A stretch of 64,000 nt of DNA. Source: Alcanivoracaceae bacterium. GTDB lineage: Bacteria; Pseudomonadota; Gammaproteobacteria; Xanthomonadales; Marinicellaceae. The position numbers were made by a program, and so were the translations under genes. The stretch is taken from assembly GCA_016763695.1 (NCBI GenBank), contig JAESTH010000158.1:225-64224 (forward strand), read 5' to 3'. Below are positions 26,211 to 42,397 of the stretch, one piece after another. Numbering within the stretch: position 1 is the stretch's first letter; every line of letters begins with the position of its first letter. The notes under the pieces are model-generated. The model saw only the letters and a list, made by a program, of their open reading frames with translations, was not told the origin of the DNA and did not search any database.

Positions 26211-26333
26211 CTCTTATTTTTCAAGTGTAGTTGTAGATTAAAATTACCTAAAACAGAATATCTGGTAGAAATTTATTTTGCTATTGTAAATACGAACTTT
26301 ATCGTTTATGATAAATTGATTCAATTTCAAGGC

Positions 26334-27443
26334 ATGCATATGTTACGTCTCAGTTTTTCAATGCTAATTATTATGGTATGTTCCAGCGTAACTGCCATAA
26401 CATATACGAATAACGAAATCAGCAATATTATCAACACTGACAATAGAGAAATATTATCCCGAAATTTCGTCAGGGGATTCTTTGTAGCCAGTGATCCAGC
26501 AAAATATATTGATGTTTTTATACAGGATAAAAATTTGACTGACAGTGTTTTGCTTAGGGAGTACCTGTTGAATATTTTATTGACTGAAGTTTCATATCAG
26601 CCCAAGCAACTGTTTCTGCAAAATTTTATTGATAATATGAAACAGTATCAGAGCCAGGCATTTAAAGTTCACCCAGAAGGCAGGATGGAAGTACCCGTCT
26701 ACAATATACAAGCTAGAGCACAGGGGGTTGAAAATATTTGGTCGGCTACAGAATCACTTTATTATTATAGTCATTTATTCAATAAAGATCCCATTCTGGC
26801 TATTGCACAATTAAGAAAAGAGTTTGATTCACTCACTGCGCCACAGTGGCTGGGTCTGAAAAATAGTATCGATAATATCAGTACTGAAAATCACCTTAAA
26901 TTGCAGGATTACTTGCTTGAAGATATTGAGCATTTGTTGGGGTTAGATAAGTTTGTTAGCCATTATGCTTTATTCACGGCAAATAAAGATTTGGTCAGTT
27001 TAGGTTTATTTCATTTTGATAAAAGTAACGGTGAGTTTTTGTTAAGAAGTCTTTCTGATTATTTTGCTGCTGATTTTGTTACGCAGCAACTTATCCATTC
27101 GGTAGCAGACAAAAAAAACCAGACATTCGCTATTTCCATGATGCAAACCTATCTGGATCAACGGGATAATATCAGGGACTCGTTATTTCTGTACCTAAAG
27201 GATAGTCAATTATCCAGTAATGCAGCGTTTGTATTATCAACCACGCAAGATAAAGGTACTTTAAATAGACTAAAAAGCAGCTATATAAACAGCCAATCAG
27301 AAATAGAGAAAAAACAGATTATATTTGCTTTAAAAATGAATAAATTAAATGAATCTGAGGTTATTCTCAACCGCCTCATCAGTAATAAGTCTAAAGCTGA
27401 CAAAAACATATGGCTCAACAGTTTTAAAAGGGAGTCAAAATGA
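26334..27443 (+). CDS. hypothetical secreted protein
   Basis: The ORF runs from TTG at 26316, and the first ATG is at 26334. It has a hydrophobic N-terminus. Its stop overlaps the next gene's start (ATGA at 27440-27443). Confidence 0.55.
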   Translation: MHMLRLSFSMLIIMVCSSVTAITYTNNEISNIINTDNREILSRNFVRGFFVASDPAKYIDVFIQDKNLTDSVLLREYLLNILLTEVSYQPKQLFLQNFIDNMKQYQSQAFKVHPEGRMEVPVYNIQARAQGVENIWSATESLYYYSHLFNKDPILAIAQLRKEFDSLTAPQWLGLKNSIDNISTENHLKLQDYLLEDIEHLLGLDKFVSHYALFTANKDLVSLGLFHFDKSNGEFLLRSLSDYFAADFVTQQLIHSVADKKNQTFAISMMQTYLDQRDNIRDSLFLYLKDSQLSSNAAFVLSTTQDKGTLNRLKSSYINSQSEIEKKQIIFALKMNKLNESEVILNRLISNKSKADKNIWLNSFKRESK

Positions 27444-30049
27444 AGAAGGTTACGGGTCTATTATTGTTAAGTTGTGGTTTTTTTGTACAGGCACAAACCA
27501 TTGTTTCCTGGACTGAAGAGAATGGTACATTGGGCTTGGGTTACCCTGTTCCTATCCCGGTTAATACCATGGAAGCATTTGATGGTTTTCGAAGCTATGA
27601 TGGTTTGTTTGCCAAACACCAGTCAATGGCATTAAACAATCCATATATTACTGGTCAGATTGTTGGTCAAACACATTTTGATCGGGATATTTGGTCATAT
27701 GTACTCAGTGATGAAGATAACTTGACCCAGTATGGTGTTAAAGAAGGTGCCATGTTAATCAATGGTAATATTCATGCACGAGAGTGGCAGTCACCAGAAG
27801 TGCTCACGGGTATTATTGAATTGTTGGATGAAAACTCACAGGATCTTTCTTTACACCAGTTTCTATTAGAAAACACCACAATAGTGACGGTACCAGTTAA
27901 TAATGTTGATGGTTTAATACAAACTCAACGATTCCCTGATCAAAACTGGTTTAATCCCCAGGACAATAATGGCCCGCGAGATGGTCGTATGCGCCGGAAA
28001 AACATGTTAAATGTAGATGAGAACTTGTTGACTCAGTCGGATTATTTATTGGGGGTAGATCTCAATCGTAACAATAATCCTTTTTGGGCTACATCAAATA
28101 ACTCATCACCTATACCTTCATCAATAGTTCATCATGGTGCTTCTGCACAGTCAGAGCCAGAAACACAGGCACGGCTTAATGCTGCCAATTTAGTTGATGC
28201 TGACCAGGTGCGAGTTTATACTGATGTTCATTCATTTACCATGGTACATTTTTCGGTGAGAACTGGTAACCAAAGCAGAAATATTTTACAGGCGAGGTTA
28301 TTACAGGATTTTACTGGACATCATCGAGCCTTTCCTGCCGCAAAAAACTATGTTGACAACCCTAGTGGGCCAGACTTTGGTATTGGTTCTACCGATGAGT
28401 TTTTTGCTACAGTTTATGAGGTGCCTTCTTGGACATTAGAAATTGAACCATCAGGAAATGGAGGCATAGATTATGGTGGTTTTGGCCGTAATGGACATGA
28501 TGGCTTTATTTTGCCTGAGTCAGAAATTACTCGTGTGCGGGAACAATTGGCACAGTCATTCATGATTACCTGGTACGGACAGGCTGGGCCTCCTTCAATT
28601 ACTGAGTTGAAAATTGTAGAAAAGCAAACTTCTACTGTAATATATGATTCAGGCTGGGATATACAAGACAATGGCACCAGACAATTGCTTGAGAACGAAA
28701 TTGACAGTATCTTGCTTGGAGAAGAGTATAGTTTAATAGTCAGTTTTGATAAACCCATGCGCATTCGTGATGAAAATGGGCAGACGATACATTTACAAGG
28801 GCAATCTACCAACTCCAATGTGTTTCCACTCAATCCTAATATTACGGCCAATATCAATGGTAATTTTCTTGATCTTAATTTGTCTAATGGTCACTGGATA
28901 AATCAAAAATCAGCAGATGTGTTTTCTTATACATACTATAAAGACGATACATATTCTGTTGATTTCAGTATTCCTGTGGACGTGATTATTGATGAAGAAT
29001 CAAGACTAAGTTGGTCGATAGATGTGGCTGATATGATCATGCAGAAACTGGATGCTGATCCAGCAACGGTTGTTACCTGGGCAGATGGGCAATGGCAAAA
29101 TTATGAAAATAGTAATGGCCTGGCATCAATATCAGGTGGTACAGATAAGAGCTACTCAATGTCCGTGGCTGCATCAAGTGATCATGCTTTTAAAGCTTTT
29201 ATTCAACCCACAGGTCTATACTTTGATCCGCTGCGAAATGGTGAAGGTTTTTCATATGAACTGCTGCAAAATAATCTGGTTTGGTTACAATGGTTTACCT
29301 ATGATGGTCAAGGTAACCAGCGCTGGTATTCTGGCTTGGGAGAATATCATGGCAATACCATTGTGGTTAATAATCTGACTCAATCCAACGGTGGTATATT
29401 TGGTGAAGAGTTTGATCCTGAAAATATAACATTTGAAACTTTTGGTTCGATAAAAATAGTATTTTCTGGTGGGGAAGTCATTAATCCTGCTATTGGAGTT
29501 CATCAAATAGCCAGGTCGGCACAAGTACTTTTTACTGATGCCAGTGGTAGAAAACTGAGAACAGACCTGCAACAAATCAGTTTTGTAAAGGGAGCCATTA
29601 ATAATCTTGATTTCATTTTCCCAACTGTAGTTATAGAAGAACCCGTTGGTTTAATTACTGGTTCATGGTATGACCCACAGCGCAGTGGTGAGGGTTATAT
29701 CATCGAAATACTGGAAGACGAACGTGCCATATTGATATGGTATAGTTATGATTTGACAGGTAAACATATGTGGTTAATTGATTCGGAAGGAATTATAACT
29801 GTTGAGGGTAATGATATCACTCTGGACTTCAATAATGTTCAGGTAACTAATGGTGGTATATTTGGTGAAAACTTTAACCCAGATGATGTCAACACTCTCC
29901 CGTGGGGCACATTACATTTTGAGTTGAGTTGTCATGGTAGTGGTATAGTTAATTATTCTTCAACTATAGAGGGGTTCGGCTCAGGACAATACAATGTTTC
30001 GAAACTAACTAATCCTTTGTTACGTAACTTTGTCTGTGATGTTGAATAG
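27440..30049 (+). CDS. secreted M14-family zinc carboxypeptidase with large C-terminal extension containing a tandemly duplicated module
   Basis: Signal peptide. Zn-binding HxxE motif (NIHAREWQSPE). Two C-terminal homologous modules (FDPLRNGEGFSYELL ... WFTYD ... NGGIFGEEFDPE, and YDPQRSGEGYIIEIL ... WYSYD ... NGGIFGENFNPD). Confidence 0.75.
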   Translation: MKKVTGLLLLSCGFFVQAQTIVSWTEENGTLGLGYPVPIPVNTMEAFDGFRSYDGLFAKHQSMALNNPYITGQIVGQTHFDRDIWSYVLSDEDNLTQYGVKEGAMLINGNIHAREWQSPEVLTGIIELLDENSQDLSLHQFLLENTTIVTVPVNNVDGLIQTQRFPDQNWFNPQDNNGPRDGRMRRKNMLNVDENLLTQSDYLLGVDLNRNNNPFWATSNNSSPIPSSIVHHGASAQSEPETQARLNAANLVDADQVRVYTDVHSFTMVHFSVRTGNQSRNILQARLLQDFTGHHRAFPAAKNYVDNPSGPDFGIGSTDEFFATVYEVPSWTLEIEPSGNGGIDYGGFGRNGHDGFILPESEITRVREQLAQSFMITWYGQAGPPSITELKIVEKQTSTVIYDSGWDIQDNGTRQLLENEIDSILLGEEYSLIVSFDKPMRIRDENGQTIHLQGQSTNSNVFPLNPNITANINGNFLDLNLSNGHWINQKSADVFSYTYYKDDTYSVDFSIPVDVIIDEESRLSWSIDVADMIMQKLDADPATVVTWADGQWQNYENSNGLASISGGTDKSYSMSVAASSDHAFKAFIQPTGLYFDPLRNGEGFSYELLQNNLVWLQWFTYDGQGNQRWYSGLGEYHGNTIVVNNLTQSNGGIFGEEFDPENITFETFGSIKIVFSGGEVINPAIGVHQIARSAQVLFTDASGRKLRTDLQQISFVKGAINNLDFIFPTVVIEEPVGLITGSWYDPQRSGEGYIIEILEDERAILIWYSYDLTGKHMWLIDSEGIITVEGNDITLDFNNVQVTNGGIFGENFNPDDVNTLPWGTLHFELSCHGSGIVNYSSTIEGFGSGQYNVSKLTNPLLRNFVCDVE

Positions 30050-30100: not shown

Positions 30101-33100
30101 CTACTCGTTAGTTTTTTGATTACAAATATTTTGGTATTTCTTTGGTGAAAAACCATATTGAGCCTTAAAACATTGTGAAAAGTATGACAGAGAGTTGAAA
30201 CCGCAATCATCAGATACTCTGCTGACCTGATATCCTGACTTTAATGATTTTGCAGCCTGTTTTAAACGGTAATCGCGCATTAAATCCATTGGATTCATGT
30301 CGATCAGGGCTTTTATTTTTCTTTGTAACTGCTTGATACTGACGGCCATATCACTGGCCATTTGTGGTCTCAAATAGAGTGGGTTATGGTAGTTTTCCAT
30401 GATTATATTATTGAGTTTATCTACAAACTCCTGATCTAATTTGGGTAAGTCTGTATTTGCAGAGCTTTTGCCTGTTTGTATGATTTTACCTGCTTTTTTC
30501 TTAATGATGTTACGAATAACCAGAATGTTTTCCAGTTGCAGCTTTAATTCATCTGCATCAAAGGGTTTGGTTAAATAGATATCTACGTGTTCTCGCCAGC
30601 CTCTGATTCTACTGGCTTTATCATCTAGTGCTGTTAACAGCATCAAAGGGATATGCGAGGTTCTGGTGTCTGAGCGTAAAGCTCTACTCACTTGGAAGCC
30701 ATCCATTCTAGGCATCATCACATCACATATGATCACATCGGGTACATGTTCAATAGCTAAAGCAACGCCATCCTTACCTGCTGCGGCAAGTAGACAATAA
30801 TAATTGTCCTTTAGGGTGTCGGCAATATGCACTCGCATATCCTGATTGTCATCAATAATCAAAATTGTTTCATTGTTTTTACTACCTTTATGTGTATCTT
30901 TCTGATCAGATAGTACGGAGTTTGTGGTGTCATTGACTAGTTGCCTAACTAAGAAATGTTTGCTGTCATCATTTGGTTCTTCAAAATCCAGATCAATTGT
31001 GCTGAAAGCAACTATAAAAGTACTACCAAAACCAACTTTGCTATCAATATTGATAGTGGCATTATTAACCTTCAGTACCTCTTTTACTACAGATAAGCCA
31101 ATGCCGACACCTTCTAAATTTTGATGAGCATCAAGACGTTTAAAACGGTTGAATATTTCAATCTGTTGTTGGGCATCTAAACCTGGACCTGAATCTTTAA
31201 CCTGAATGAATATTTGAGTTTTAGTAGTCTCTGCACTAACCGTTACTCGTCCGCCAATCGGAGTGTATTTAACGGCATTGGAAAGCAAGTTTCCTAATAC
31301 GATATCCAAGGCATTTTTGGTGACCTTTATTGTACCTCTGTCATTTTTTTCGAGTTCCAGAGCTATTTTTTTCTCACTGGCTAAAGGCTTAAATGAATCA
31401 ACAATGGCTTCAATGTGGCTGTGTGTATTGCAGGCGTTAAAAGTAATTTTCTGCTGATCACTGATTTTAGCCAGTTGTAACAATTGTTCAATCATGGTCA
31501 GCAAACGATTTGCATTTCTATTAATCATTTTTAATGAGTTAATATCACTGACACACAGCTTGGATTTTAAAAGTTTATTGACTGGACCTAAAATCAGAGT
31601 TAAAGGTGTGCGAAATTCGTGCGAAACATTGGCAAATAATTCGTTTTTTCTGGTCAATAATGTTTCTACCGTTTGTTTCTGTACCTGTAGTTCATCGGTC
31701 TTTTGTTGTAATGTCTTGGTTTTCTTCATGACTTCCTGTCGTAGCATATTGGTTAATTGGGCATTGGCTTTGGTTTTTCTGTGGATAAACCACCACAATA
31801 TAAGCAGAGTCGATAAAATATAGAGGCTCATTGCCCACCAACTTAACCATGGCGCGGGTAATACTTTTATTTTCAACGATTTGCCTATATTGTTCCAGAC
31901 TCCATCTTTGTTTGAGCCCCTGACTTTAAAGGTATAGTTACCTGATTTAAGATTTGAATAACTAATGCTACGATTATCCGCATTTACATAGTTCCAGTCG
32001 GGATCCTGACCTTCCATTTTATAGGCATATTTATTTCGACTGGGGTCTGCAAAATCCAAAGCCGCAAATTCAAATCCAATCACATAATCCTTATGGCTTA
32101 ATGTTAATTCTTCTAAATCACTTATGTCCTTATTGAGGATAAAATCATCATAGTTTATTCCTGTCTTAATTGGAGTTCCAAATCGGGTTAGTTCTGTTAA
32201 AGCAATCTTTGGTGCTTTTGTATTGATAATAATATCTTGGGGGTTAAATGCATTTAGACCATTACGTCCACCAAAAATAAGTTTCCCAGAAGGAGTTTTA
32301 TAGGATGAAGATTTAGTAAAAAAGTTACTTTGTAAACCATCACTTTTACGAAAGGTATGTGTTTCCTTTGTTGCTAAATTTATATGCTTTAATCCATTAT
32401 CTGTACCTAACCATAAATTGCCATTATTATCTTCTTCTATACTATTGATGGTTATATTTTTTGAGATTCCTTGTTTTTCGGAATAGTGTAAAAGTAATTT
32501 TTCTTTTTCATCGAAATGAAATAGACCGTGTTTAGCTGTACCTATCCACAATTCATTATCATTATTAATGAATATAGATTGAATTTCAGTTTGGGGTAGT
32601 TGACTCTGTATTTTTTTATAAATACTTAATTTTTCATCTTTGCTTAATTTATAAACTCCACCTTTGCCGATAAGTATATGTGCTCCATTTTTGTCAATGG
32701 CAATATCAGAAAAGTCGAGCTTCTCAGTTTGGCTGTTTGTGAGTTTTATTTCCGCTGTGATGTTGTTTTTGATCGTATATTTATACAATCCCTGATTGGT
32801 TCCCAGTAATAGCATATCATGCCTGTATTTTTTGGCAAAGTATGTCCTTATTTTTGTATTATTATTTAACCCGTTCATTTCTCCAGTTATTTTGTTAAAT
32901 AGGATCAACCCTCTGGCAGTAGGTAACCAAAGCATGTTGTCCTTATATTCGATAATATCATATACGATTGTGCGTGAAGATGACTTGTTTCTATGGTCAA
33001 CAGATCCATAAAATTCACATATATTTTTCTCTTTATTGAATTTTATTAAACCATTTTGGCTGGCTACCCATAAATTTTTCTCTAAATCTTGATGGAAACC

Positions 33101-34168
33101 ATAGAAAACATTGTTATCAGAGCAACTAATACTATTTTTTGAGTCTGTTTCCAAACCAAAATTTAAAGTATTAAGATCTAGATAATTAACACCATCATTG
33201 AAAGTCCCAATCCACAAAATACCAGAATTGTCGATAAAAAGAGATAAGATAATATTGTCTGATATCGAGGTGTTTATATGCGAATCATACTCATAATTAT
33301 TTATACTGCTGTCATTCTGTGATATTTTAAATAGACCACTATAAATTGTACCAACCCAAATGTTAAATGCATCTGAGGTAATAGTGAATACGACTTGTTT
33401 TAATATTTTAGGTTTAAACTGGGAGAATGTTTTTTCCGTTGCTGTTTTTCTGAATAATCCCTTATGTGTTCCTACCCAGATAGTATTAAATTGATCTTTG
33501 TGGATTACATTGACAGGTAAATATCCTTTGTTTAAAGATAATTTCTGTCGTGATATTTTCTTTGTTTTACTATTTAATGAAAACAATCCTATGCTGGTGC
33601 CAATTAAAAGCGTTTCTGAGTCTTCCCATAATAACGTTTTAATGGGTTTTGTTAGAGTTCCAACCCCATCAATCACGATTGGATGGCGAGTAAATTTCCG
33701 TGTTTCAGACATAAATGTAAGGCCATTATCTGTACCAATCCATAATCCAGAATCTTTATCTGCTATTAAAGTAGAAATTGAACTTGAGCCAATTGTATTT
33801 CTGTCGTTTTCCTTATATTGATATCTTTGTATTTTTCCATGATCATAGCAAATTAAGCCATTATTCTTAGTGCCTATCCATAATGTATTCCTTACATCAA
33901 TATGCATGGTAACAATTTCTATTGGTTTAGAACTATTGTTAATATTTATGGATTCAAGTTCGTTGCCATTGAATTTGAACAAACCTGCATCTGCTGTAGC
34001 TATCCAAATGTATCCATTTTTATCCTGTAGTATTTTTTTAACGACCTGAATAGGGGTGTTGTCAATGGAGTTTATGAGCTTATTAAATTTCACAACCACT
34101 GCATAACTACAATTCATTGCTAATATAAAAAAAACAAATACAGCTTTACGACTAAGTATAATTGACAT
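30101..34168 (-). CDS. hybrid two-component system protein: periplasmic beta-propeller (Reg_prop repeats) + Y_Y_Y domain + histidine kinase + receiver + AraC-type HTH
   Basis: Many W(I/V)GT..GL propeller repeats. Y_Y_Y region YAYKMEGQDPDWNYV ... GNYTFKVRGSNKDGVWN. A TM segment. H-box SHEFRTPLT. ATPase motifs (DSGPGL, GVGIGLS). Receiver domain (ILIIDDNQD ... CDVMMPRMDG ... KPF). C-terminal AraC HTH (SLSYFSQCFKAQYGFSPKKY). Confidence 0.85.
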   Translation of the reverse strand: MSIILSRKAVFVFFILAMNCSYAVVVKFNKLINSIDNTPIQVVKKILQDKNGYIWIATADAGLFKFNGNELESININNSSKPIEIVTMHIDVRNTLWIGTKNNGLICYDHGKIQRYQYKENDRNTIGSSSISTLIADKDSGLWIGTDNGLTFMSETRKFTRHPIVIDGVGTLTKPIKTLLWEDSETLLIGTSIGLFSLNSKTKKISRQKLSLNKGYLPVNVIHKDQFNTIWVGTHKGLFRKTATEKTFSQFKPKILKQVVFTITSDAFNIWVGTIYSGLFKISQNDSSINNYEYDSHINTSISDNIILSLFIDNSGILWIGTFNDGVNYLDLNTLNFGLETDSKNSISCSDNNVFYGFHQDLEKNLWVASQNGLIKFNKEKNICEFYGSVDHRNKSSSRTIVYDIIEYKDNMLWLPTARGLILFNKITGEMNGLNNNTKIRTYFAKKYRHDMLLLGTNQGLYKYTIKNNITAEIKLTNSQTEKLDFSDIAIDKNGAHILIGKGGVYKLSKDEKLSIYKKIQSQLPQTEIQSIFINNDNELWIGTAKHGLFHFDEKEKLLLHYSEKQGISKNITINSIEEDNNGNLWLGTDNGLKHINLATKETHTFRKSDGLQSNFFTKSSSYKTPSGKLIFGGRNGLNAFNPQDIIINTKAPKIALTELTRFGTPIKTGINYDDFILNKDISDLEELTLSHKDYVIGFEFAALDFADPSRNKYAYKMEGQDPDWNYVNADNRSISYSNLKSGNYTFKVRGSNKDGVWNNIGKSLKIKVLPAPWLSWWAMSLYILSTLLILWWFIHRKTKANAQLTNMLRQEVMKKTKTLQQKTDELQVQKQTVETLLTRKNELFANVSHEFRTPLTLILGPVNKLLKSKLCVSDINSLKMINRNANRLLTMIEQLLQLAKISDQQKITFNACNTHSHIEAIVDSFKPLASEKKIALELEKNDRGTIKVTKNALDIVLGNLLSNAVKYTPIGGRVTVSAETTKTQIFIQVKDSGPGLDAQQQIEIFNRFKRLDAHQNLEGVGIGLSVVKEVLKVNNATINIDSKVGFGSTFIVAFSTIDLDFEEPNDDSKHFLVRQLVNDTTNSVLSDQKDTHKGSKNNETILIIDDNQDMRVHIADTLKDNYYCLLAAAGKDGVALAIEHVPDVIICDVMMPRMDGFQVSRALRSDTRTSHIPLMLLTALDDKASRIRGWREHVDIYLTKPFDADELKLQLENILVIRNIIKKKAGKIIQTGKSSANTDLPKLDQEFVDKLNNIIMENYHNPLYLRPQMASDMAVSIKQLQRKIKALIDMNPMDLMRDYRLKQAAKSLKSGYQVSRVSDDCGFNSLSYFSQCFKAQYGFSPKKYQNICNQKTNE

Positions 34169-34343: not shown

Positions 34344-34592
34344 TTAATTAATTGGTTTTATTTCTATTAAACATTCTGGATCATTAATTGTATAATGAGG
34401 GTCGAAAACGGTTTCTTCGTGACCGCCTGGATCTGGGCAAGATATGGCACTGGTAGCCAATTGGTAGAATACGCTGTTATGGTAGCAGGCATTTTGCATT
34501 GGGCCTCCTATTTCTCCAAAAGATTTACTGATACCAAAATAAACGGTAGTTGATAACAATATTGCAATTAATAATATTTTGTATGCTTTCAT
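34344..34592 (-). CDS. small secreted or membrane-anchored Cys-containing protein, unknown function
   Basis: 82 aa with N-terminal hydrophobic segment KILLIAILLSTTVYFGIS and three Cys. GGGA lies 5 nt before the ATG. It is preceded by the same upstream motif as the precursor gene. Confidence 0.55.
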   Translation of the reverse strand: MKAYKILLIAILLSTTVYFGISKSFGEIGGPMQNACYHNSVFYQLATSAISCPDPGGHEETVFDPHYTINDPECLIEIKPIN

Positions 34593-34645
34593 ATTTTTCC
34601 CACGTTATAAAAAGAAAAACAAATATAGCTAATTTCGTATGCAAG

Positions 34646-34698
34646 ATCAACCACATGTCCCAGATTTAACTTTTTATGTCCCAGCATATAAAAAAATC
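34646..34698 (-). promoter_or_regulatory. upstream regulatory motif copy A: two 9-bp direct repeats (CTGGGACAT on the minus strand) separated by 12 bp, flanked by conserved sequence
   Basis: On the plus strand ATGTCCCAG occurs at 34655-34663 and at 34676-34684. The whole ~52-nt block aligns with 38349-38399 upstream of the precursor gene. Confidence 0.55.
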
Positions 34699-34713
34699 AT
34701 AAGCTATGAACTT

Positions 34714-37700
34714 TTAACCAAATCCAGCAACGACTTCTTTTCCAATTTTAAAGTCTCTGGCTATCACTGTTCTACTATAACGTGCTAAATAATGGTAAAT
34801 AATCCATTCATTGGCTCTGGGGTTGATGGTAAATATTCTATTACAATCCATATGAATAATACTTTGGATGACTGTTAAAATATCATTCTTATTGATATGA
34901 CATAAACTTTTTAGATTATTTAAGGCATCGTTATATTGAGGGATTATTATTGTGTTTATTTGTTTATTTTGAGAAACATAATAATCAGGTTTTAAACATG
35001 TTGCTACATCTTGCATGGATTGGCGATAATTGTTGCTGAGTTTCTTTCTGCTTGTTGGAGTGCTGCCAAATTCCTGATCATAGGATGCTGCCACTTTTTT
35101 ATAAAACAGTTCCATCTGTTGTAAAGAGTCACAAGCGCCTAGTGCTAACTTCCATGCCAAATGCAGGCACATTTTCCATCTGAGTTCATTTTTATCGCGA
35201 TGTAGTGATGTATTGTTAATAACATCAGTAACAATAACGCTGTTTAAATAAAATAATTCTTCACAGACTGGTAAAATTTCCGTACCACCATATCGGGTTA
35301 TTTCTGGTATGTAACTTTCTTCATTTATTTTTTTGATCAGTCCCTGCGTATATAAAACTCTGAGTGGTTTATATAAATATTTATTCAGCTTAACAGTCTC
35401 AAAATCTGTGTTGAGCTTAAAGCGAGCTCTGATGTGGAAATCAGGGTCGTGGTAACGAATAAAAAACCAGCTATCAATGATGCCTTCTACTATAAGCTTA
35501 TGTGCCAATGGAGCAATATTTTTAGCAATAAGCTTATCTGCACTGGCCTCACCCGTATATATTTTTAAATACTTCCATTTTTCCCCAGGCAAGGATGTGT
35601 TATTTTTGAGGGCTCTGATATTAAGCTGTTGACTGTTAAAATTAATAATGGGTTTAAGTTCGGTAGTTGATTGCACATATGTTGGAATAATAAATTCATG
35701 ACGATAAACTTTGTCATCGTGCTGAAATTGTTTGTCTGAACGACCTTTAACCGATTCACATAAGGTGACCATCGATTTGTTTTTTATTTCATTAATAAAA
35801 AGTAACATGGAAAAAGGCGATTCCAGATCAAATTCCAGAACATTATCTCCTTCTGTCAGGGCAACATACTGGGTGATTGCTTTTTCATGTTTAAGATTTT
35901 TTAACGCCTCTAGCTTGCTATCTATACTGCTTTTTTTATGTAACACCTGCATTTCTGATCTGTTGAGTAACCACCTTCTTTCTGAGATAATAAGGTTGTC
36001 AACCCTGATTTCTGGTATATATGGTAGTGTGGTAAAGACTGTATTTAAGGACATCCCAGTCATCCAGCCATCTACGCCTTGCATGGCATGTAAAAACTGG
36101 TATATCGGTAGATTTAATCCACGGGTATTGTGAGCAGAAGCCAGGCGGGGCTTGATCTCCATCTTTAATTTTTTTGAATATAGACATAAGCGACCATTAA
36201 TGGCTTTTAAATACAGGTCTTCACATTTGATCTGTTTGTCATGGCTTAGGCCTGAATCACCTGGGCCATATACGATTTCATATTCTCTGAGGCTGGGGCG
36301 ACATGAAACATTTGCTGTTATTGCCTGTTGTACATGTACAATTTCTGCGAAAATAGCGTGAGGATTGTTCTTCTTTTCTTGTTGTGCGATTTTTCTACAT
36401 TCTGTAGTTAAAGTGTCATCACCGCAACAGAATCGACCCAAAAGCATAAGGGCAGAGGGGCCAAATATACTTTTGATCTGAAATAAAGGTTCATTGTCAT
36501 CACCTTCAAGTATCATTCCGTGTATTGATGCCGAGCCATCAAAACGATTTTTTGGTTTGGGCAGAAATATTTTATATTTATCGATTTCATGGCTGTTAAT
36601 TTGTACAACTTTATCATTATTACTGATGGCAGCAATGATTCTTCTGATCAAGAATTGATCTAATGGTCGCCAGTCTGTGTTTTTGCTATGATTATGCTTG
36701 TGTGGAATGACACCATTTAACAGGGGCGAACTTCCTCCTCTTGTTTGCCCAAAAGGGATGCCATTATCTATATCCAGGGCTTCTAAAAGTGAAACTTCTG
36801 CATCACCATAACACTCAACAAAATTTTTGGTAAAATTTTCTAGCAGCTGATTGGGTTGCCAAAAATATTGGGCCATAGAATTAATGGTTTTCAAAAGTGA
36901 TTGTATTTTATTTACATCCATGGCAAAATTCTGACCAGATCTGAAGGAGTCAACATGCAACCAGCGTTTCATTTCATAATCAGGCAATAATAGGCTCAAT
37001 ATCTGTTTAGCCTTCTTCAGATTGTCATTGCTATGGGCATCATGTAAAGATGATATGGAGCCCAATAACTGTAAAATTTCAGCCATCTTTGTGCTGATAT
37101 CATGATTGAGTTGGGATGCTTCTAGCCTCTGATGAAGGGCTTTAAATGAGTTCTTTGAACTAACAACAATGGTTAGATTACTTTCTAATAACTGATTGTT
37201 GATTAAATCAAAAACAAAGTCGCTTAACTGCGAGATCTTAACATCTGGATAAATAGTTGTTAGTTTACTAACGAGATTTGCAACCGTAACCCAAATTGAT
37301 GCCATGCTTAATGTTTGTTTTATGGCTTGGCTAAAGGTGACTGAATCCAATTTAAAATCATTCAGTTTATTGACTGTGTTTTTTGCCACAAAGCGTACTT
37401 CATCAGCAATGGTATACAGGCTGCTGTTTTTTCTTATCTTCAGGTTTACATTTCTGCTTTCGATAGCTAAAACCTCTGCCTGTTTGGCAATTTCCAGTAC
37501 ACAGGCATTATCTACCCTTAAATATAGTCTTTGTTCAGGATTAATGTCCATAATTGCCGGCTCTTTATTTGTAACTGTCATAACACTGGAGAATGCACCA
37601 AATGGAGTGGAGCGTGTAGACATACGCACCAGATATTTATAGATTGATGCAGCTAACTTTAAGTTTTCTATTGTTAATTCATCTGTCAAATCGGTGATTT

Positions 37701-37920
37701 TTGCTGCTAAGTTTTCTGAAGCAAACTCAATGGCCTGAACAATATTTTTGTTATTGCTCAATTTGATTAATTGACGTAAAGACTGTCTGATACTTGCTTC
37801 ATTATTTTCTTTGCTCTCAAGATGTTCATCATGCTGCGCTAATACATCTATGGTATTTTCTGGTAAGTACGGAAGCCGAAAAACCGAAAAACCTAATTGT
37901 TTAATTGCCCATTCTGTCAT
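34714..37920 (-). CDS. full-length class I lanthipeptide dehydratase (LanB family: N-terminal glutamylation domain + C-terminal SpaB_C/elimination domain)
   Basis: 1068 aa. R99-x3-R103-x-T105-PFG (VRMSTRSTPFGAF) has the spacing of the NisB Arg/Arg/Thr glutamylation motif. The C-terminal domain carries KYLKIY ... WFFIRYHDPDFHIRARFK, typical of the elimination domain. Confidence 0.85.
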   Translation of the reverse strand: MTEWAIKQLGFSVFRLPYLPENTIDVLAQHDEHLESKENNEASIRQSLRQLIKLSNNKNIVQAIEFASENLAAKITDLTDELTIENLKLAASIYKYLVRMSTRSTPFGAFSSVMTVTNKEPAIMDINPEQRLYLRVDNACVLEIAKQAEVLAIESRNVNLKIRKNSSLYTIADEVRFVAKNTVNKLNDFKLDSVTFSQAIKQTLSMASIWVTVANLVSKLTTIYPDVKISQLSDFVFDLINNQLLESNLTIVVSSKNSFKALHQRLEASQLNHDISTKMAEILQLLGSISSLHDAHSNDNLKKAKQILSLLLPDYEMKRWLHVDSFRSGQNFAMDVNKIQSLLKTINSMAQYFWQPNQLLENFTKNFVECYGDAEVSLLEALDIDNGIPFGQTRGGSSPLLNGVIPHKHNHSKNTDWRPLDQFLIRRIIAAISNNDKVVQINSHEIDKYKIFLPKPKNRFDGSASIHGMILEGDDNEPLFQIKSIFGPSALMLLGRFCCGDDTLTTECRKIAQQEKKNNPHAIFAEIVHVQQAITANVSCRPSLREYEIVYGPGDSGLSHDKQIKCEDLYLKAINGRLCLYSKKLKMEIKPRLASAHNTRGLNLPIYQFLHAMQGVDGWMTGMSLNTVFTTLPYIPEIRVDNLIISERRWLLNRSEMQVLHKKSSIDSKLEALKNLKHEKAITQYVALTEGDNVLEFDLESPFSMLLFINEIKNKSMVTLCESVKGRSDKQFQHDDKVYRHEFIIPTYVQSTTELKPIINFNSQQLNIRALKNNTSLPGEKWKYLKIYTGEASADKLIAKNIAPLAHKLIVEGIIDSWFFIRYHDPDFHIRARFKLNTDFETVKLNKYLYKPLRVLYTQGLIKKINEESYIPEITRYGGTEILPVCEELFYLNSVIVTDVINNTSLHRDKNELRWKMCLHLAWKLALGACDSLQQMELFYKKVAASYDQEFGSTPTSRKKLSNNYRQSMQDVATCLKPDYYVSQNKQINTIIIPQYNDALNNLKSLCHINKNDILTVIQSIIHMDCNRIFTINPRANEWIIYHYLARYSRTVIARDFKIGKEVVAGFG

Positions 37921-37965
37921 AAAAAGTGTGCCTTATATATTGTTACATTATTAATTTAATTGAAA

Positions 37966-37990
37966 GGAAAAAAGAATGATTCTTTTCTCC
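37966..37990 (-). terminator. intergenic hairpin between the precursor gene and lanB (candidate partial terminator/attenuator)
   Basis: The minus-strand RNA reads GGAGAAAAGAAU-C-AUUCUUUUUUCC. The arms are 12 nt with one G-U pair, followed by UUUC. It is AU-rich, so it is probably weak. Confidence 0.4.
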
Positions 37991-38015
37991 TTTTTAAAAA
38001 GTTATACTTTCTTAC

Positions 38016-38189
38016 TTATTTGACATCACCATTATTGCTTGTGCACATAAGTGTAGTGATAGTAAGACTGGGTGGTGGTGGATCGTTAGGGTCTCCGATT
38101 GTTCCACCAGCAACTAGATCCAGTTCTGAAGGAGTGAGATCCCGAATAGTGGTTTTTTCGATCGCAAATTGATTGTTTAAATCTTTCAT
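38016..38189 (-). CDS. RiPP precursor peptide (LanA-like), 57 aa: 29-aa leader ending in a double-glycine motif plus 28-aa Thr/Ser/Pro-rich core with one Cys
   Basis: Sequence MKDLNNQFAIEKTTIRDLTPSELDLVAGG|TIGDPNDPPPPSLTITTLMCTSNNGDVK. AAGG lies about 9 nt upstream of the ATG at 38189. The gene is 95 nt upstream of lanB on the same strand. Confidence 0.75.
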   Translation of the reverse strand: MKDLNNQFAIEKTTIRDLTPSELDLVAGGTIGDPNDPPPPSLTITTLMCTSNNGDVK

Positions 38190-42157: not shown

Positions 42158-42397
42158 ATGAGCGATTATGAAAAACGCGTAAAAGATATTATTGTAGAGC
42201 AATTGGATTTAGACGTAGATGTGTCTGAATTAAATAACAGTTCTTCATTTGTTGATGATTTAGGAGCTGATTCTTTAGATACTGTTGAATTGGTGATGGC
42301 GCTGGAAGAAGAGTTCGATTGTGAAATTCCTGAGTCAGATGCAGATAAAATTACTACAGTTCAACAAGCTATAGATTACGTATCAGCTAACGCTTAA
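42158..42397 (+). CDS. acpP: acyl carrier protein
   Basis: 79 aa with the phosphopantetheine attachment motif [20 protein letters not shown]. Confidence 0.95.

What the first reader, a model, noticed from the sequence alone, without database searches (positions are those of the whole stretch)
34714..38189. Minimal LanB-plus-precursor RiPP locus with no cyclase, exporter, protease or immunity genes
A full-length class I dehydratase has both the tRNA-Glu-dependent glutamylation domain (R99/R103/T105-PFG spacing as in NisB) and the elimination domain (WFFIRYHDPDFHIRARFK). It sits 95 nt downstream of a 57-aa precursor-like gene on the same strand. Canonical class I lanthipeptide clusters pair LanB with a LanC cyclase. 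None of the other ORFs in this 64-kb window shows LanC-like GxAHG/WCxG/CHG motifs. There is also no PCAT/LanT, LanP, LanFEG or tailoring enzyme. The core has 7 Ser/Thr but only one Cys. The product may therefore be a largely linear poly-dehydroamino-acid peptide with at most one, possibly spontaneous, (methyl)lanthionine ring (for example Thr16 or Thr17 to Cys20). It could also be the substrate for chemistry not encoded by known partners. I know of no characterised example of such a LanC-less full-length LanB locus in a gammaproteobacterium, so I consider this the candidate novel system in the window.
Basis: partly seen in the sequence, partly recalled or inferred. Interest (0 to 1): 0.9.

Follow-up and report, generated by a model that had tools for sequence, protein, structure and literature searches.

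The report
Cyclase-less LanB dehydropeptide locus, exporter lost
A marine gammaproteobacterial genome fragment carries an intact peptide dehydratase (LanB) next to a threonine-rich precursor peptide; it belongs to a small, uncharacterised family that never has the ring-forming cyclase, so it most likely makes largely linear dehydrated peptides rather than classical lantibiotics.

Summary
A full-length LanB (34714..37920, -) lies 95 nt downstream of a 57-aa precursor (38016..38189, -). No LanC, LanT/PCAT, LanP, LanFEG or tailoring gene occurs anywhere in the 64 kb.

The locus is not an isolated minimal pair. It belongs to a rare, monophyletic LanB clade from marine MAGs: about 16 proteins, and 49 precursors among 5.8 billion protein clusters.
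- None of the 10 family loci has LanC within about 10 kb, against 35 of 43 other LanB loci that do.
- The precursors share a conserved double-glycine leader.
- Cores are hypervariable, rich in Thr/Ile/Leu/Val and poor in Cys (23% have none, 54% have one).

Most relatives also carry HlyD plus a C39 PCAT exporter, a small exported 3-Cys protein, and a hybrid sensor kinase/AraC regulator. The window keeps the last two but has cleanly lost HlyD-PCAT. LanB is still under purifying selection (dN/dS 0.13), and all nine catalytic-equivalent residues are invariant.

Best reading: a LanB-only pathway that makes mostly linear Dha/Dhb peptides, with cleavage and export supplied in trans in this lineage. 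I found no characterised counterpart. I rate it a new variant of class I lanthipeptide machinery, interest about 0.6.

The parts
38016..38189 (-). Precursor peptide gene, 57 aa plus stop: MKDLNNQFAIEKTTIRDLTPSELDLVAGG|TIGDPNDPPPPSLTITTLMCTSNNGDVK
   Evidence: ORF and sequence. Scores 63 bits, E 1.9e-17, against the leader HMM of the family. It is one of 49 family members. dN/dS against L008 is 0.14.
38103..38189 (-). Leader region (aa 1-29), ending in the double-glycine motif LVAGG
   Evidence: Conserved leader MK.LNN.F.I.KTTMRDLTP.E...VAG(G/A) in alignment A3. It weakly resembles class I lanthipeptide leaders of LanC-containing loci.
38019..38102 (-). Core region (28 aa): 7 Ser/Thr, 1 Cys, a PPPP stretch. 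The C-terminal C-T-S-N-N-G resembles the C-G-T-N-N-G of relatives.
   Evidence: Sequence. Comparison with cores of L002, L007, L009 and L010. Only one amino-acid change (V to I) against L008.
37963..37993 (-). 14-bp hairpin between the precursor stop and the lanB start; attenuator-like
   Evidence: RNA fold with z-score -2.75. Hairpins of 12-14 bp sit at the same position in L008, L007, L009, L002 and L010, with different sequences. The simple terminator scan did not flag it because it is AT-rich.
34714..37920 (-). Full-length class I-type dehydratase LanB (1068 aa)
   Evidence: Pfam and NCBIfam hits. Best solved relative is MadB 9g04, E 1.5e-49. dN/dS is 0.128 against L008. NCBI names it lantibiotic dehydratase, MBL4660256.1.
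35800..37749 (-). Glutamylation domain (aa 58-707), with R99, R103, T105, D137, D324 and R496
   Evidence: Pfam PF04738. Residues mapped through the MadB alignment and the MadB paper. They are invariant in 11/11 family LanBs and 76-77/77 other LanBs.
34777..35577 (-). Glutamate-elimination domain (aa 782-1048), with R833, R876 and H1023
   Evidence: Pfam PF14028 and TIGR03891. The residues are invariant.
34593..34713 (-). Intergenic stretch where relatives carry HlyD plus PCAT (about 3.4 kb missing)
   Evidence: DNA alignment A2. The window matches the end of L007's lanB up to the stop codon, and then matches L007's sequence downstream of the PCAT stop.
34344..34592 (-). Small exported protein (82 aa): a signal-like N-terminus and three conserved Cys (C36, C52, C74). 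Conserved partner of unknown function.
   Evidence: Present in L007, L008 and L009 (one copy), L002 and L010 (three copies), and L003. Alignment A4. No Pfam, NCBIfam or PADLOC hit. dN/dS is 0.16.
30101..34168 (-). Hybrid sensor kinase/response regulator/AraC-type regulator (1355 aa; Reg_prop, Y_Y_Y, HisKA, HATPase, REC, HTH_18). Conserved partner.
   Evidence: Pfam. Orthologues adjoin LanB in L002 (49% identity), L003 (39%), L007, L008 and L010. Their divergence tracks that of LanB.

Best explanation
The locus is a reduced member of a small clade of LanB-only RiPP clusters from marine Gammaproteobacteria.

Proposed mechanism:
1. The precursor's conserved leader docks on LanB.
2. LanB uses Glu-tRNA(Glu) to glutamylate Ser/Thr side chains of the core, then eliminates glutamate to give Dha/Dhb.
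3. No cyclase is involved. The product is therefore an essentially linear, multiply dehydrated peptide (up to 7 dehydrations here). At most one thioether could form non-enzymatically from the single Cys20.
4. If Thr1 is dehydrated, leader removal would leave an N-terminal 2-oxobutyryl cap.
5. In most relatives, the leader is cut after the GG/GA motif and the peptide is exported by an adjacent C39-peptidase ABC transporter (PCAT) with a HlyD-type adaptor.
6. In the window's lineage these two genes were deleted. Processing and export must then come from a PCAT encoded elsewhere.
7. The hybrid kinase/AraC regulator probably controls the operon. The small exported 3-Cys protein is a conserved accessory of unknown role, possibly immunity.

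Shown here: gene content, family membership, absence of LanC, conservation of catalytic residues, the deletion, and purifying selection.

Inferred only: the dehydration itself, the linear product, trans export, the N-terminal cap, and the roles of the regulator and the small protein.
For: - LanB domains and catalytic-equivalent residues are intact and invariant.
- The family is a long-branched monophyletic clade in which no locus has LanC (0 hits at E<=10). By contrast, 35 of 43 other LanB loci with at least 8 kb of flank on both sides do have LanC.
- The sister lineage L093 also reads HlyD-PCAT-LanB-precursor, with a Cys-free core and no LanC.
- Across 48 distinct cores: 11 have no Cys and 26 have one. 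Thr is 27% of residues and Cys 3.3%, against 18.7% Cys in cores beside LanC.
- The leader is conserved and ends in GG or GA.
- The relatives L002, L003, L005, L007, L009 and L010 carry HlyD plus PCAT immediately after LanB.
- The deletion junction is clean.
- L008 (LanB 92% identical) shares the PCAT-less layout. Between it and the window, dS is 0.28 with dN/dS of 0.128 for LanB, 0.14 for the precursor and 0.16 for the 82-aa gene.
- A hairpin after the precursor gene is conserved in position.
- The hybrid kinase co-diverges with LanB.
Against: - There is no chemistry: dehydration, product structure and bioactivity are all untested.
- 77% of family cores keep at least one Cys. The Cys in the C-[GT]-[TS]-N-N-G motif is conserved across several sub-lineages. 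A specific thioether or other Cys chemistry may therefore matter, possibly catalysed by something not recognised here.
- The window is a 64.5-kb contig of a MAG, so a LanC or PCAT elsewhere in the genome cannot be excluded.
- Only about 10 kb on each side of related loci was examined.
- The roles of the kinase and the 82-aa protein rest on co-occurrence alone.
Confidence: 0.62

Rival explanations
1. This is an ordinary split class I lanthipeptide system. LanC (and LanT) are encoded elsewhere in the genome and form a methyllanthionine ring with the single Cys, so the locus only looks cyclase-less.
For: - The window is one contig of an incomplete MAG.
- The core Cys is conserved in the three closest variants and lies in a motif shared with more distant relatives.
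- 37 of 48 cores have at least one Cys.
- The leader weakly resembles leaders of LanC-containing class I loci.
Against: - No LanC lies within about 10 kb in any of 10 family loci or in the sister lineage. Those same loci keep the transporter genes tightly adjacent, which argues for compact clusters.
- 11 cores have no Cys at all.
- Cys density is about six times lower than in LanC-linked cores.
- Loss of LanC coincides with the whole clade on the tree.
Confidence: 0.13
2. The window's locus is an inactive remnant. After deletion of the exporter/peptidase genes, the precursor can no longer be matured, and LanB and the precursor are on their way to becoming pseudogenes.
For: HlyD and PCAT are cleanly missing relative to L007. 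No other PCAT lies in the 64 kb.
Against: - All ORFs are intact.
- The same PCAT-less layout is shared with L008 at dS 0.28, with dN/dS of 0.13 (LanB), 0.14 (precursor) and 0.16 (82-aa gene).
- The GG cleavage motif, every core Ser/Thr/Cys and the intergenic hairpin are retained.
- A second sub-clade (L001) also lacks an adjacent PCAT, yet it has expanded to two LanBs and eight precursors.
Confidence: 0.08
3. The LanB homologue does something other than dehydration. It might leave stable O-glutamyl esters, or add an amino acid as PEARLs do, so the product is not a dehydropeptide.
For: The LanB superfamily is known to have diversified into peptide aminoacyl-tRNA ligases (PMC11002830). The clade sits on a long branch.
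Against: - PEARLs lack the elimination domain. This protein has it.
- The residues equivalent to the essential NisB/MadB elimination residues (R833, R876, H1023) are invariant, as are the glutamylation residues.
- Cores are rich in Ser/Thr, the canonical substrates.
Confidence: 0.05

Closest known systems
Class I lanthipeptide biosynthesis (NisB/NisC type; closest solved LanB is MadB of the maddinglicin cluster, PDB 9g04)
   Same: - Full-length LanB with glutamylation and elimination domains.
- All residues reported as essential in NisB/MadB are conserved.
- Ribosomal precursor with an N-terminal leader.
- Precursor gene followed by a hairpin and then lanB.
   Different: - No LanC in the window or in any family locus.
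- Cores are Cys-poor or Cys-free and dominated by Thr plus Ile/Leu/Val.
- No LanP, LanFEG or LanI.
- LanB is only about 25-30% identical to other LanBs.
Class I lanthipeptide clusters of Gram-negative bacteria with PCAT plus HlyD export (for example the Pseudoalteromonas, Rheinheimera and Chitinophaga loci L039, L054, L081 and L013 seen here; pinensins and Thalassomonas viridans VdsA as published examples)
   Same: - Double-glycine leaders of the K-x-T-L/M-R-x-L ... GG type.
- The family's PCATs score highest against the Pseudoalteromonas ones (over 1000 bits).
- The HlyD-type adaptor is shared.
   Different: - Those loci carry LanC next to LanB, and their cores have 4-6 Cys.
- The window additionally lacks the PCAT and HlyD.
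[quoted passage not shown]
   Same: By its title, the concept matches: lanthipeptide-type machinery yielding linear peptides that carry dehydroamino acids rather than rings.
   Different: - The paper is not held in the library. I could not check which enzymes make myxopeptins, their precursor type, or any homology to this clade.
- The organism and phylum differ.
LanB-type dehydratases in non-lanthipeptide RiPPs (thiopeptides, pyritides, goadsporin) and short LanBs/PEARLs (pearlins)
   Same: tRNA-dependent LanB-superfamily enzymes working without LanC, on cores that need not contain Cys for ring formation (PMC11002830; PMC7268733).
   Different: - Those systems use split or truncated LanBs together with YcaO/azole enzymes, a [4+2] cyclase or other tailoring genes.
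- None of these is present here.
- Here LanB is full-length and is the only modifying enzyme.

Membership tests
Class I lanthipeptide gene cluster | Full-length LanB dehydratase (PF04738 plus PF14028) with catalytic residues | tested here: met
   Pfam E 2.4e-96 and 9.7e-52. R99, R103, T105, D137, D324, R496, R833, R876 and H1023 are invariant.
Class I lanthipeptide gene cluster | LanC cyclase (PF05147) encoded in the cluster | tested here: not met
   A LanC HMM from 8 Pfam-verified seeds gives no hit at E<=10 in the 64-kb window or in loci L001-L012, and none at E<=1e-3 in L091-L094.
Class I lanthipeptide gene cluster | Core peptide with several Cys positioned to form Lan/MeLan rings | tested here: not met
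   The window core has one Cys. Family cores have 0 Cys (11), 1 (26), 2 (8) or 3 (3). The Cys fraction is 3.3%, against 18.7% in LanC-linked cores.
Class I lanthipeptide gene cluster | Thioether (Lan/MeLan) present in the mature product | not testable with these tools
   Needs MS/MS and thiol-alkylation of the peptide.
Double-glycine (PCAT-processed) exported peptides | Leader ending in GG/GA preceded by a conserved hydrophobic pattern | tested here: met
   The window has ELDLVAGG. In alignment A3, the V and the first G of the V-x-G-(G/A) motif are invariant in all 15 aligned leaders, and the last position is G or A. The same motif was located in all 49 retrieved precursors.
Double-glycine (PCAT-processed) exported peptides | C39-peptidase ABC transporter (with HlyD adaptor in Gram-negatives) encoded alongside | tested here: not met
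   None in the window, L001, L004 or L008. Present in L002, L003, L005, L007, L009, L010 and L093.
Thiopeptide / pyritide / LAP-type clusters using LanB-like dehydratases | Split LanB plus YcaO/azoline enzymes or a [4+2] cyclase (an extra stand-alone elimination-like domain) | tested here: not met
   LanB is a single 1068-aa protein. Pfam scans of 50 of the 56 window ORFs of at least 120 aa show no YcaO, no second Lant_dehydr_C and no dehydrogenase partner near the locus.
PEARL / pearlin systems (short LanB) | LanB homologue lacking the elimination domain | tested here: not met
   The elimination domain is present at residues 782-1048 with conserved catalytic residues.
Myxopeptin-type linear dehydroamino-acid peptides | Defining enzymes and precursor features as published | not testable with these tools
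   The paper is not held. Only the title is known, from reference lists.

The most novel reading that the evidence does not exclude
The clade defines an unrecognised RiPP class. PCAT-exported peptides have Thr-x-Thr-x cores (x = Ile/Leu/Val), which a lone LanB converts into linear, highly electrophilic poly-dehydrobutyrine chains without any cyclase. A dedicated periplasmic-sensing hybrid kinase and a small exported protein accompany them. The odd (third) conserved cysteine of the small protein would capture or neutralise the Michael-acceptor peptide as immunity or as a carrier. The window's lineage would then be a 'cheater' or modular variant that relies on a shared exporter.
Probability: 0.3. 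Interest if true: 0.8.

Novelty: new variant of a known kind. Interest (0 to 1): 0.6.

Why it matters
Genome-mining pipelines for lanthipeptides usually start from LanC. The large RODEO survey, for example, began with LanC-domain proteins (PMC7268733). A LanB-only clade like this one is therefore invisible to them, and its precursors are annotated only as hypothetical proteins.

If the prediction holds, the family offers three things:
- a natural set of about 50 very diverse Thr-rich substrates for one dehydratase type;
- a route to linear poly-Dhb/Dha peptides, which are reactive, protease-resistant scaffolds;
- a test case for what dehydroamino acids do biologically when they are not used for ring formation.

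It also shows RiPP clusters shedding their exporter while the enzyme and substrate stay under selection. That bears on how such clusters are shared or complemented within genomes.

Tried and rejected
- RND efflux pump as part of the system. An AcrB/MFP pair lies near LanB in the window, L002, L003 and L010, but the proteins are only 22-24% (AcrB) and 25-33% (MFP) identical, so they are not orthologous. I rejected it as a conserved component.
- M14 carboxypeptidase-like protein (27440..30049) and the unknown 375-aa gene as tailoring enzymes. They are absent from all other family loci, so I treated them as unrelated neighbours.
- Structure of the 82-aa protein. The AlphaFold2 model on a 4-sequence alignment gave mean pLDDT 44.5, which is unusable, so I ran no fold search.
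- Word-indexed homology search with the 82-aa protein found only 3 close relatives. I recognised the wider family only by reading related loci.
- Anti-phage defence: PADLOC gave no hits for LanB, precursor, 82-aa protein, kinase or neighbours.
- NCBIfam has no model matching the precursors.
- Literature: ten full-text searches found no description of a LanC-less full-length LanB family with Thr-rich cores. The myxopeptin paper and two reviews could not be opened.
- My first regex for the leader was off by one and found only one precursor. It was corrected.
- My first dN/dS attempt on the kinase N-terminus was out of register and is not used.
- I could not find precursors in the other LanC-less outgroup loci (L022, L046 and others) with a simple pattern, so their nature is left open.


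Full report
**What is there**

On the minus strand, the window encodes a 57-aa peptide (38016..38189) and, 95 nt later, a 1068-aa protein (34714..37920).
- The large protein matches Pfam Lant_dehydr_N (residues 58-707, E 2.4e-96) and Lant_dehydr_C (782-1048, E 9.7e-52). It also matches TIGR03891.
- Its best solved relative is the class I dehydratase MadB (9g04, E 1.5e-49), followed by MibB (9g04 identified through PMC12241602).
- The MadB paper lists the residues essential for glutamylation and elimination. Through the MadB alignment these map to R99, R103, T105, D137, R496, R833, R876 and H1023 of the window protein.
- The remaining Asp is best assigned to D324 in the HVD motif. HMMER placed MadB D308 six residues earlier, in a poorly aligned stretch. 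D324 is invariant in all 88 LanBs I aligned, whereas K318 is not.
- All nine positions are invariant in 11/11 family members and 76-77/77 other LanBs.

**Absence of partners in the window**

- I built a LanC HMM from eight neighbours of other LanBs, each verified as LANC_like by Pfam. I searched every stop-to-stop ORF of at least 60 aa in all six frames. The window gives no hit even at E<=10.
- HMMs of the family's own PCAT and HlyD proteins also find nothing in the window.
- I scanned 50 of the 56 window ORFs of at least 120 aa with Pfam. The exceptions are five overlapping or internal ORFs and the FabF-like ORF, which NCBI names. The scans show housekeeping or unrelated genes. These include pyrimidine catabolism, an ion channel, TyrA, HtpG, an RND pump, RlmD, PabB/C, MltG, Tmk, HolB, RpoE-RseABC, DegP-like, LepA, LepB, Rnc, Era and RecO.
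- There is no LanP-type subtilase, LanFEG, LanM/LanKC or tailoring enzyme.
- The window is nearly the whole of a 64,551-nt contig of an NCBI MAG labelled 'Alcanivoracaceae bacterium' (locus tags JKY19_078xx). There, LanB is named lantibiotic dehydratase and the precursor is a hypothetical protein. The rest of the genome cannot be inspected here.

**The locus belongs to a family**

- A search of 5.8 billion protein clusters returned only 16 LanBs at 43-92% identity, then a drop to 27%.
- An exhaustive profile search of 1.84 billion 50%-identity representatives shows the same picture. The clade occupies two full-length representative clusters (1770 and 1570 bits) plus two fragments. A few intermediates score 640-844 bits. 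The general LanB plateau lies below about 600 bits, with more than 5,500 proteins at E<1e-30.
- Among GTDB species representatives, only Marinicella/Marinicellaceae genomes carry close relatives.
- I read the DNA around ten distinct family loci.
- Each has one or more small genes with a strongly conserved leader, MK(D/N)LNN.F.I.KTTMR(D/E)LTP.E...VAG(G/A), followed by a hypervariable core.
- A profile of these precursors retrieves 49 proteins in the 5.8-billion-cluster collection. All are unnamed or annotated as hypothetical.

**Nature of the cores**

- Across 48 distinct cores, 11 have no Cys, 26 have one, 8 have two and 3 have three.
- Thr is 27% of residues, Ile/Leu/Val 23% and Cys 3.3%. The first core residue is Thr or Ser in 29 of 48.
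- Many cores are alternating Thr-hydrophobic runs, such as PIPITITITITITITTTVVEIEK or TTALTTLTIIPTTITVTTVTITTITFNNEK. Marinicellaceae members have GPTG collagen-like repeats.
- For contrast, eight precursors found beside LanC-containing LanB loci with the same leader HMM have 4-6 Cys each (18.7% Cys).
- The window's core tail, C-T-S-N-N-G-D-V-K, looks homologous to the C-G-T-N-N-G-Q-M-L tail of L002, L010, L007 and L009. Its single Cys may therefore be functionally retained.

**No cyclase anywhere in the clade**

- None of the family loci has a LanC hit within the roughly 10 kb of flank available.
- By contrast, 35 of 43 other full-length LanB loci with at least 8 kb on both sides do have one.
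- On a neighbour-joining tree of 88 LanBs, the family is a long-branched monophyletic group that is uniformly LanC-less.
- P0117 is one of the intermediate-scoring proteins. It comes from a 61% GC organism and sits in HlyD-PCAT-LanB-precursor order, again without LanC. Its core is Cys-free and hydrophobic: LSASDVVATVGIAAAGAYEVFVSSSWVLVL.
- Loss of LanC and loss of Cys from the cores thus go together over a substantial evolutionary depth. This is the main argument that the products are not classical polycyclic lanthipeptides.

- In L002, L003, L005/L006, L007, L009 and L010, LanB is followed directly by a HlyD-type adaptor and a C39-peptidase ABC transporter. NCBIfam recognises the latter as a peptide cleavage/export transporter. 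This fits the GG/GA leaders.
- After the transporter come one to three copies of a small exported protein with three conserved cysteines (motifs C[YW]H, CP, DPxC).
- Next comes a roughly 1350-aa hybrid sensor kinase with periplasmic Reg_prop/Y_Y_Y repeats, HisKA/HATPase, a receiver domain and an AraC-type HTH.
- The kinase is orthologous across loci (49% and 39% identity to L002 and L003). Its divergence parallels that of LanB (51% and 44%).
- The window has the 82-aa protein (34344..34592) and the kinase (30101..34168) in the same order and orientation as L007, but nothing between LanB and the 82-aa gene.
- The DNA alignment shows the window following L007's lanB to its stop codon, then continuing with L007's sequence downstream of the PCAT stop. 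The roughly 3.4-kb HlyD-PCAT segment is cleanly absent.
- L009, L007, L002 and L010 all have it, and the window plus L008 are nested among them. Loss in the window/L008 ancestor is therefore the parsimonious reading.
- A second sub-clade (L001, probably L004) also lacks an adjacent PCAT. L001 nevertheless carries two LanBs and eight precursors.

**Is the reduced locus alive?**

- L008 is a metagenomic contig with a LanB 92% identical to the window's. It has the same PCAT-less layout.
- Between the two, synonymous divergence is 0.28 with dN/dS of 0.128 for LanB. It is similar in both domains (0.12 and 0.13), and is 0.14 for the precursor and 0.16 for the 82-aa gene.
- The GG motif and every Ser, Thr and Cys of the core are unchanged in the window, L008 and a third variant, P0095.
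- A 14-bp hairpin lies between the precursor stop and the lanB start (37963..37993; z -2.75). Hairpins of 12-14 bp occupy the same position in five relatives despite different sequences.
- From general knowledge of lantibiotic operons (not tested here), I read this hairpin as the usual lanA-lanB attenuator, which keeps precursor transcripts in excess.
- These data argue against a decaying remnant. They imply that cleavage and export are provided from elsewhere in the genome.

**Mechanism proposed**

Shown here:
- an intact tRNA-dependent dehydratase;
- a cognate leader-core substrate family;
- no cyclase;
- PCAT/HlyD in relatives;
- selection on the reduced locus.

Inferred from established LanB enzymology (NisB, MibB, MadB):
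- LanB binds the leader, glutamylates core Ser/Thr using Glu-tRNA(Glu), and eliminates glutamate to give Dha/Dhb.
- With no cyclase, the product stays linear.
- The single Cys20 could add non-enzymatically to a Dha (Ser12 or Ser22) or, more slowly, to a nearby Dhb.
- A dehydrated residue 1 would hydrolyse to a 2-oxobutyryl cap once the leader is removed, as known for other lantibiotics with N-terminal Dhb (my own knowledge, not tested).

Guesses from co-occurrence only:
- the hybrid kinase may regulate the operon;
- the 3-Cys exported protein may serve in immunity or handling of an electrophilic peptide.

**Comparison with known systems and novelty**

- The enzyme is a bona fide member of the class I LanB family. 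The cluster fails two defining features of a class I lanthipeptide cluster: LanC and a Cys-rich core.
- It is not a thiopeptide, pyritide or LAP system (no split LanB, YcaO or [4+2] enzyme). It is not a PEARL system either, because the elimination domain is present.
- LanB-type enzymes acting without LanC are known in those other RiPP classes (PMC11002830; PMC7268733).
[quoted passage not shown] I could not read that paper, so I cannot say whether it involves a LanB-only cluster.
- The major lanthipeptide mining study started from LanC domains and would not have seen this clade.
- Ten literature searches found nothing on it. That is absence of evidence within the held library only.
- About one in five other full-length LanB loci in my sample (8 of 43) also lack a nearby LanC. 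Cyclase-less LanB loci as such are therefore not unique.
- The new elements are this coherent clade, its Thr/β-branched-rich Cys-poor cores, and its conserved kinase and small-protein partners.
- I rate it a new variant of a known kind, with interest 0.6. It is a solid, testable lead for RiPP discovery, but it rests on known dehydratase chemistry and has no product data.

Noticed in passing
window 34344..34592 (-); also L002 16723..17601, L010 16703..17608, L007 10253..10501, L009 16726..16971, L003 9252..9563 (-): A family of small (82-103 aa) proteins with a signal-like N-terminus and exactly three conserved cysteines (C[YW]H, CP, DPxC). They always accompany this LanB clade, sometimes in three tandem copies. 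No database family matches. An odd number of Cys in an exported protein suggests a free thiol.
   Followed up: partly
window 26316..30049 (+): Two overlapping genes of unknown role lie between the hybrid kinase and an RND pump: a 375-aa protein with no Pfam hit, and an 869-aa secreted M14 carboxypeptidase-like protein with a long C-terminal extension. They are not found in other family loci.
   Followed up: partly
L001 4919..14089: On a 1.56-Mb metagenomic contig, two paralogous LanBs are interleaved with eight precursor genes. The cores range from ITITITIT runs to C-terminal ...RDPC, and a transposase follows. This is an expanded, PCAT-less version of the system.
   Followed up: partly
L003 13332..13622; L005 12929..13201: Marinicella/Marinicellaceae members place the precursor downstream of LanB. 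Their cores are long, with collagen-like G-P-(T/S)-G repeats (for example TGPGGITGPSGPTGFTGP), unlike the Thr-Ile cores of the other members.
   Followed up: no
L093 6465..13527 (GCA_054605695.1, 61% GC): A more distant LanB (844 bits to the family profile) sits in HlyD-PCAT-LanB-precursor order. It has a related leader (…TTLRELGPTEVDNVSGG), a Cys-free hydrophobic core and no LanC. The cyclase-less arrangement therefore extends beyond the marine low-GC clade.
   Followed up: partly
L022, L041, L046, L047, L051, L073, L075, L087: Eight of 43 other full-length LanB loci with complete flanks also lack a LanC within 10 kb, in Chitinophaga, Geothrix, Parapedobacter, Polyangiaceae and others. Two of them have a PCAT. 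I could not identify their precursors with a simple pattern.
   Followed up: partly
L092 2027..5095 (protein P0015): One family LanB (1022 aa, from a different 'Alcanivoracaceae' MAG, GCA_016764615.1) carries a precomputed Pfam hit to an acetyltransferase family (PF13673) in addition to the two LanB domains.
   Followed up: no
window 42158..42397 (+) and whole window: NCBI labels the MAG 'Alcanivoracaceae bacterium'. However, the acyl carrier protein's 90% cluster also holds Marinicellaceae, Xanthomonadales and unclassified Gammaproteobacteria entries. The only GTDB species with close LanB relatives are Marinicella/Marinicellaceae. The family-level label may be unreliable.
   Followed up: no
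window 37963..37993 (-) and equivalent positions in L002, L007, L008, L009, L010: A purine-rich/pyrimidine-rich hairpin of 12-14 bp sits directly after every precursor stop codon. Its position is conserved but its sequence is not. The simple terminator scan misses the window's copy because its stem is AT-rich.
   Followed up: yes
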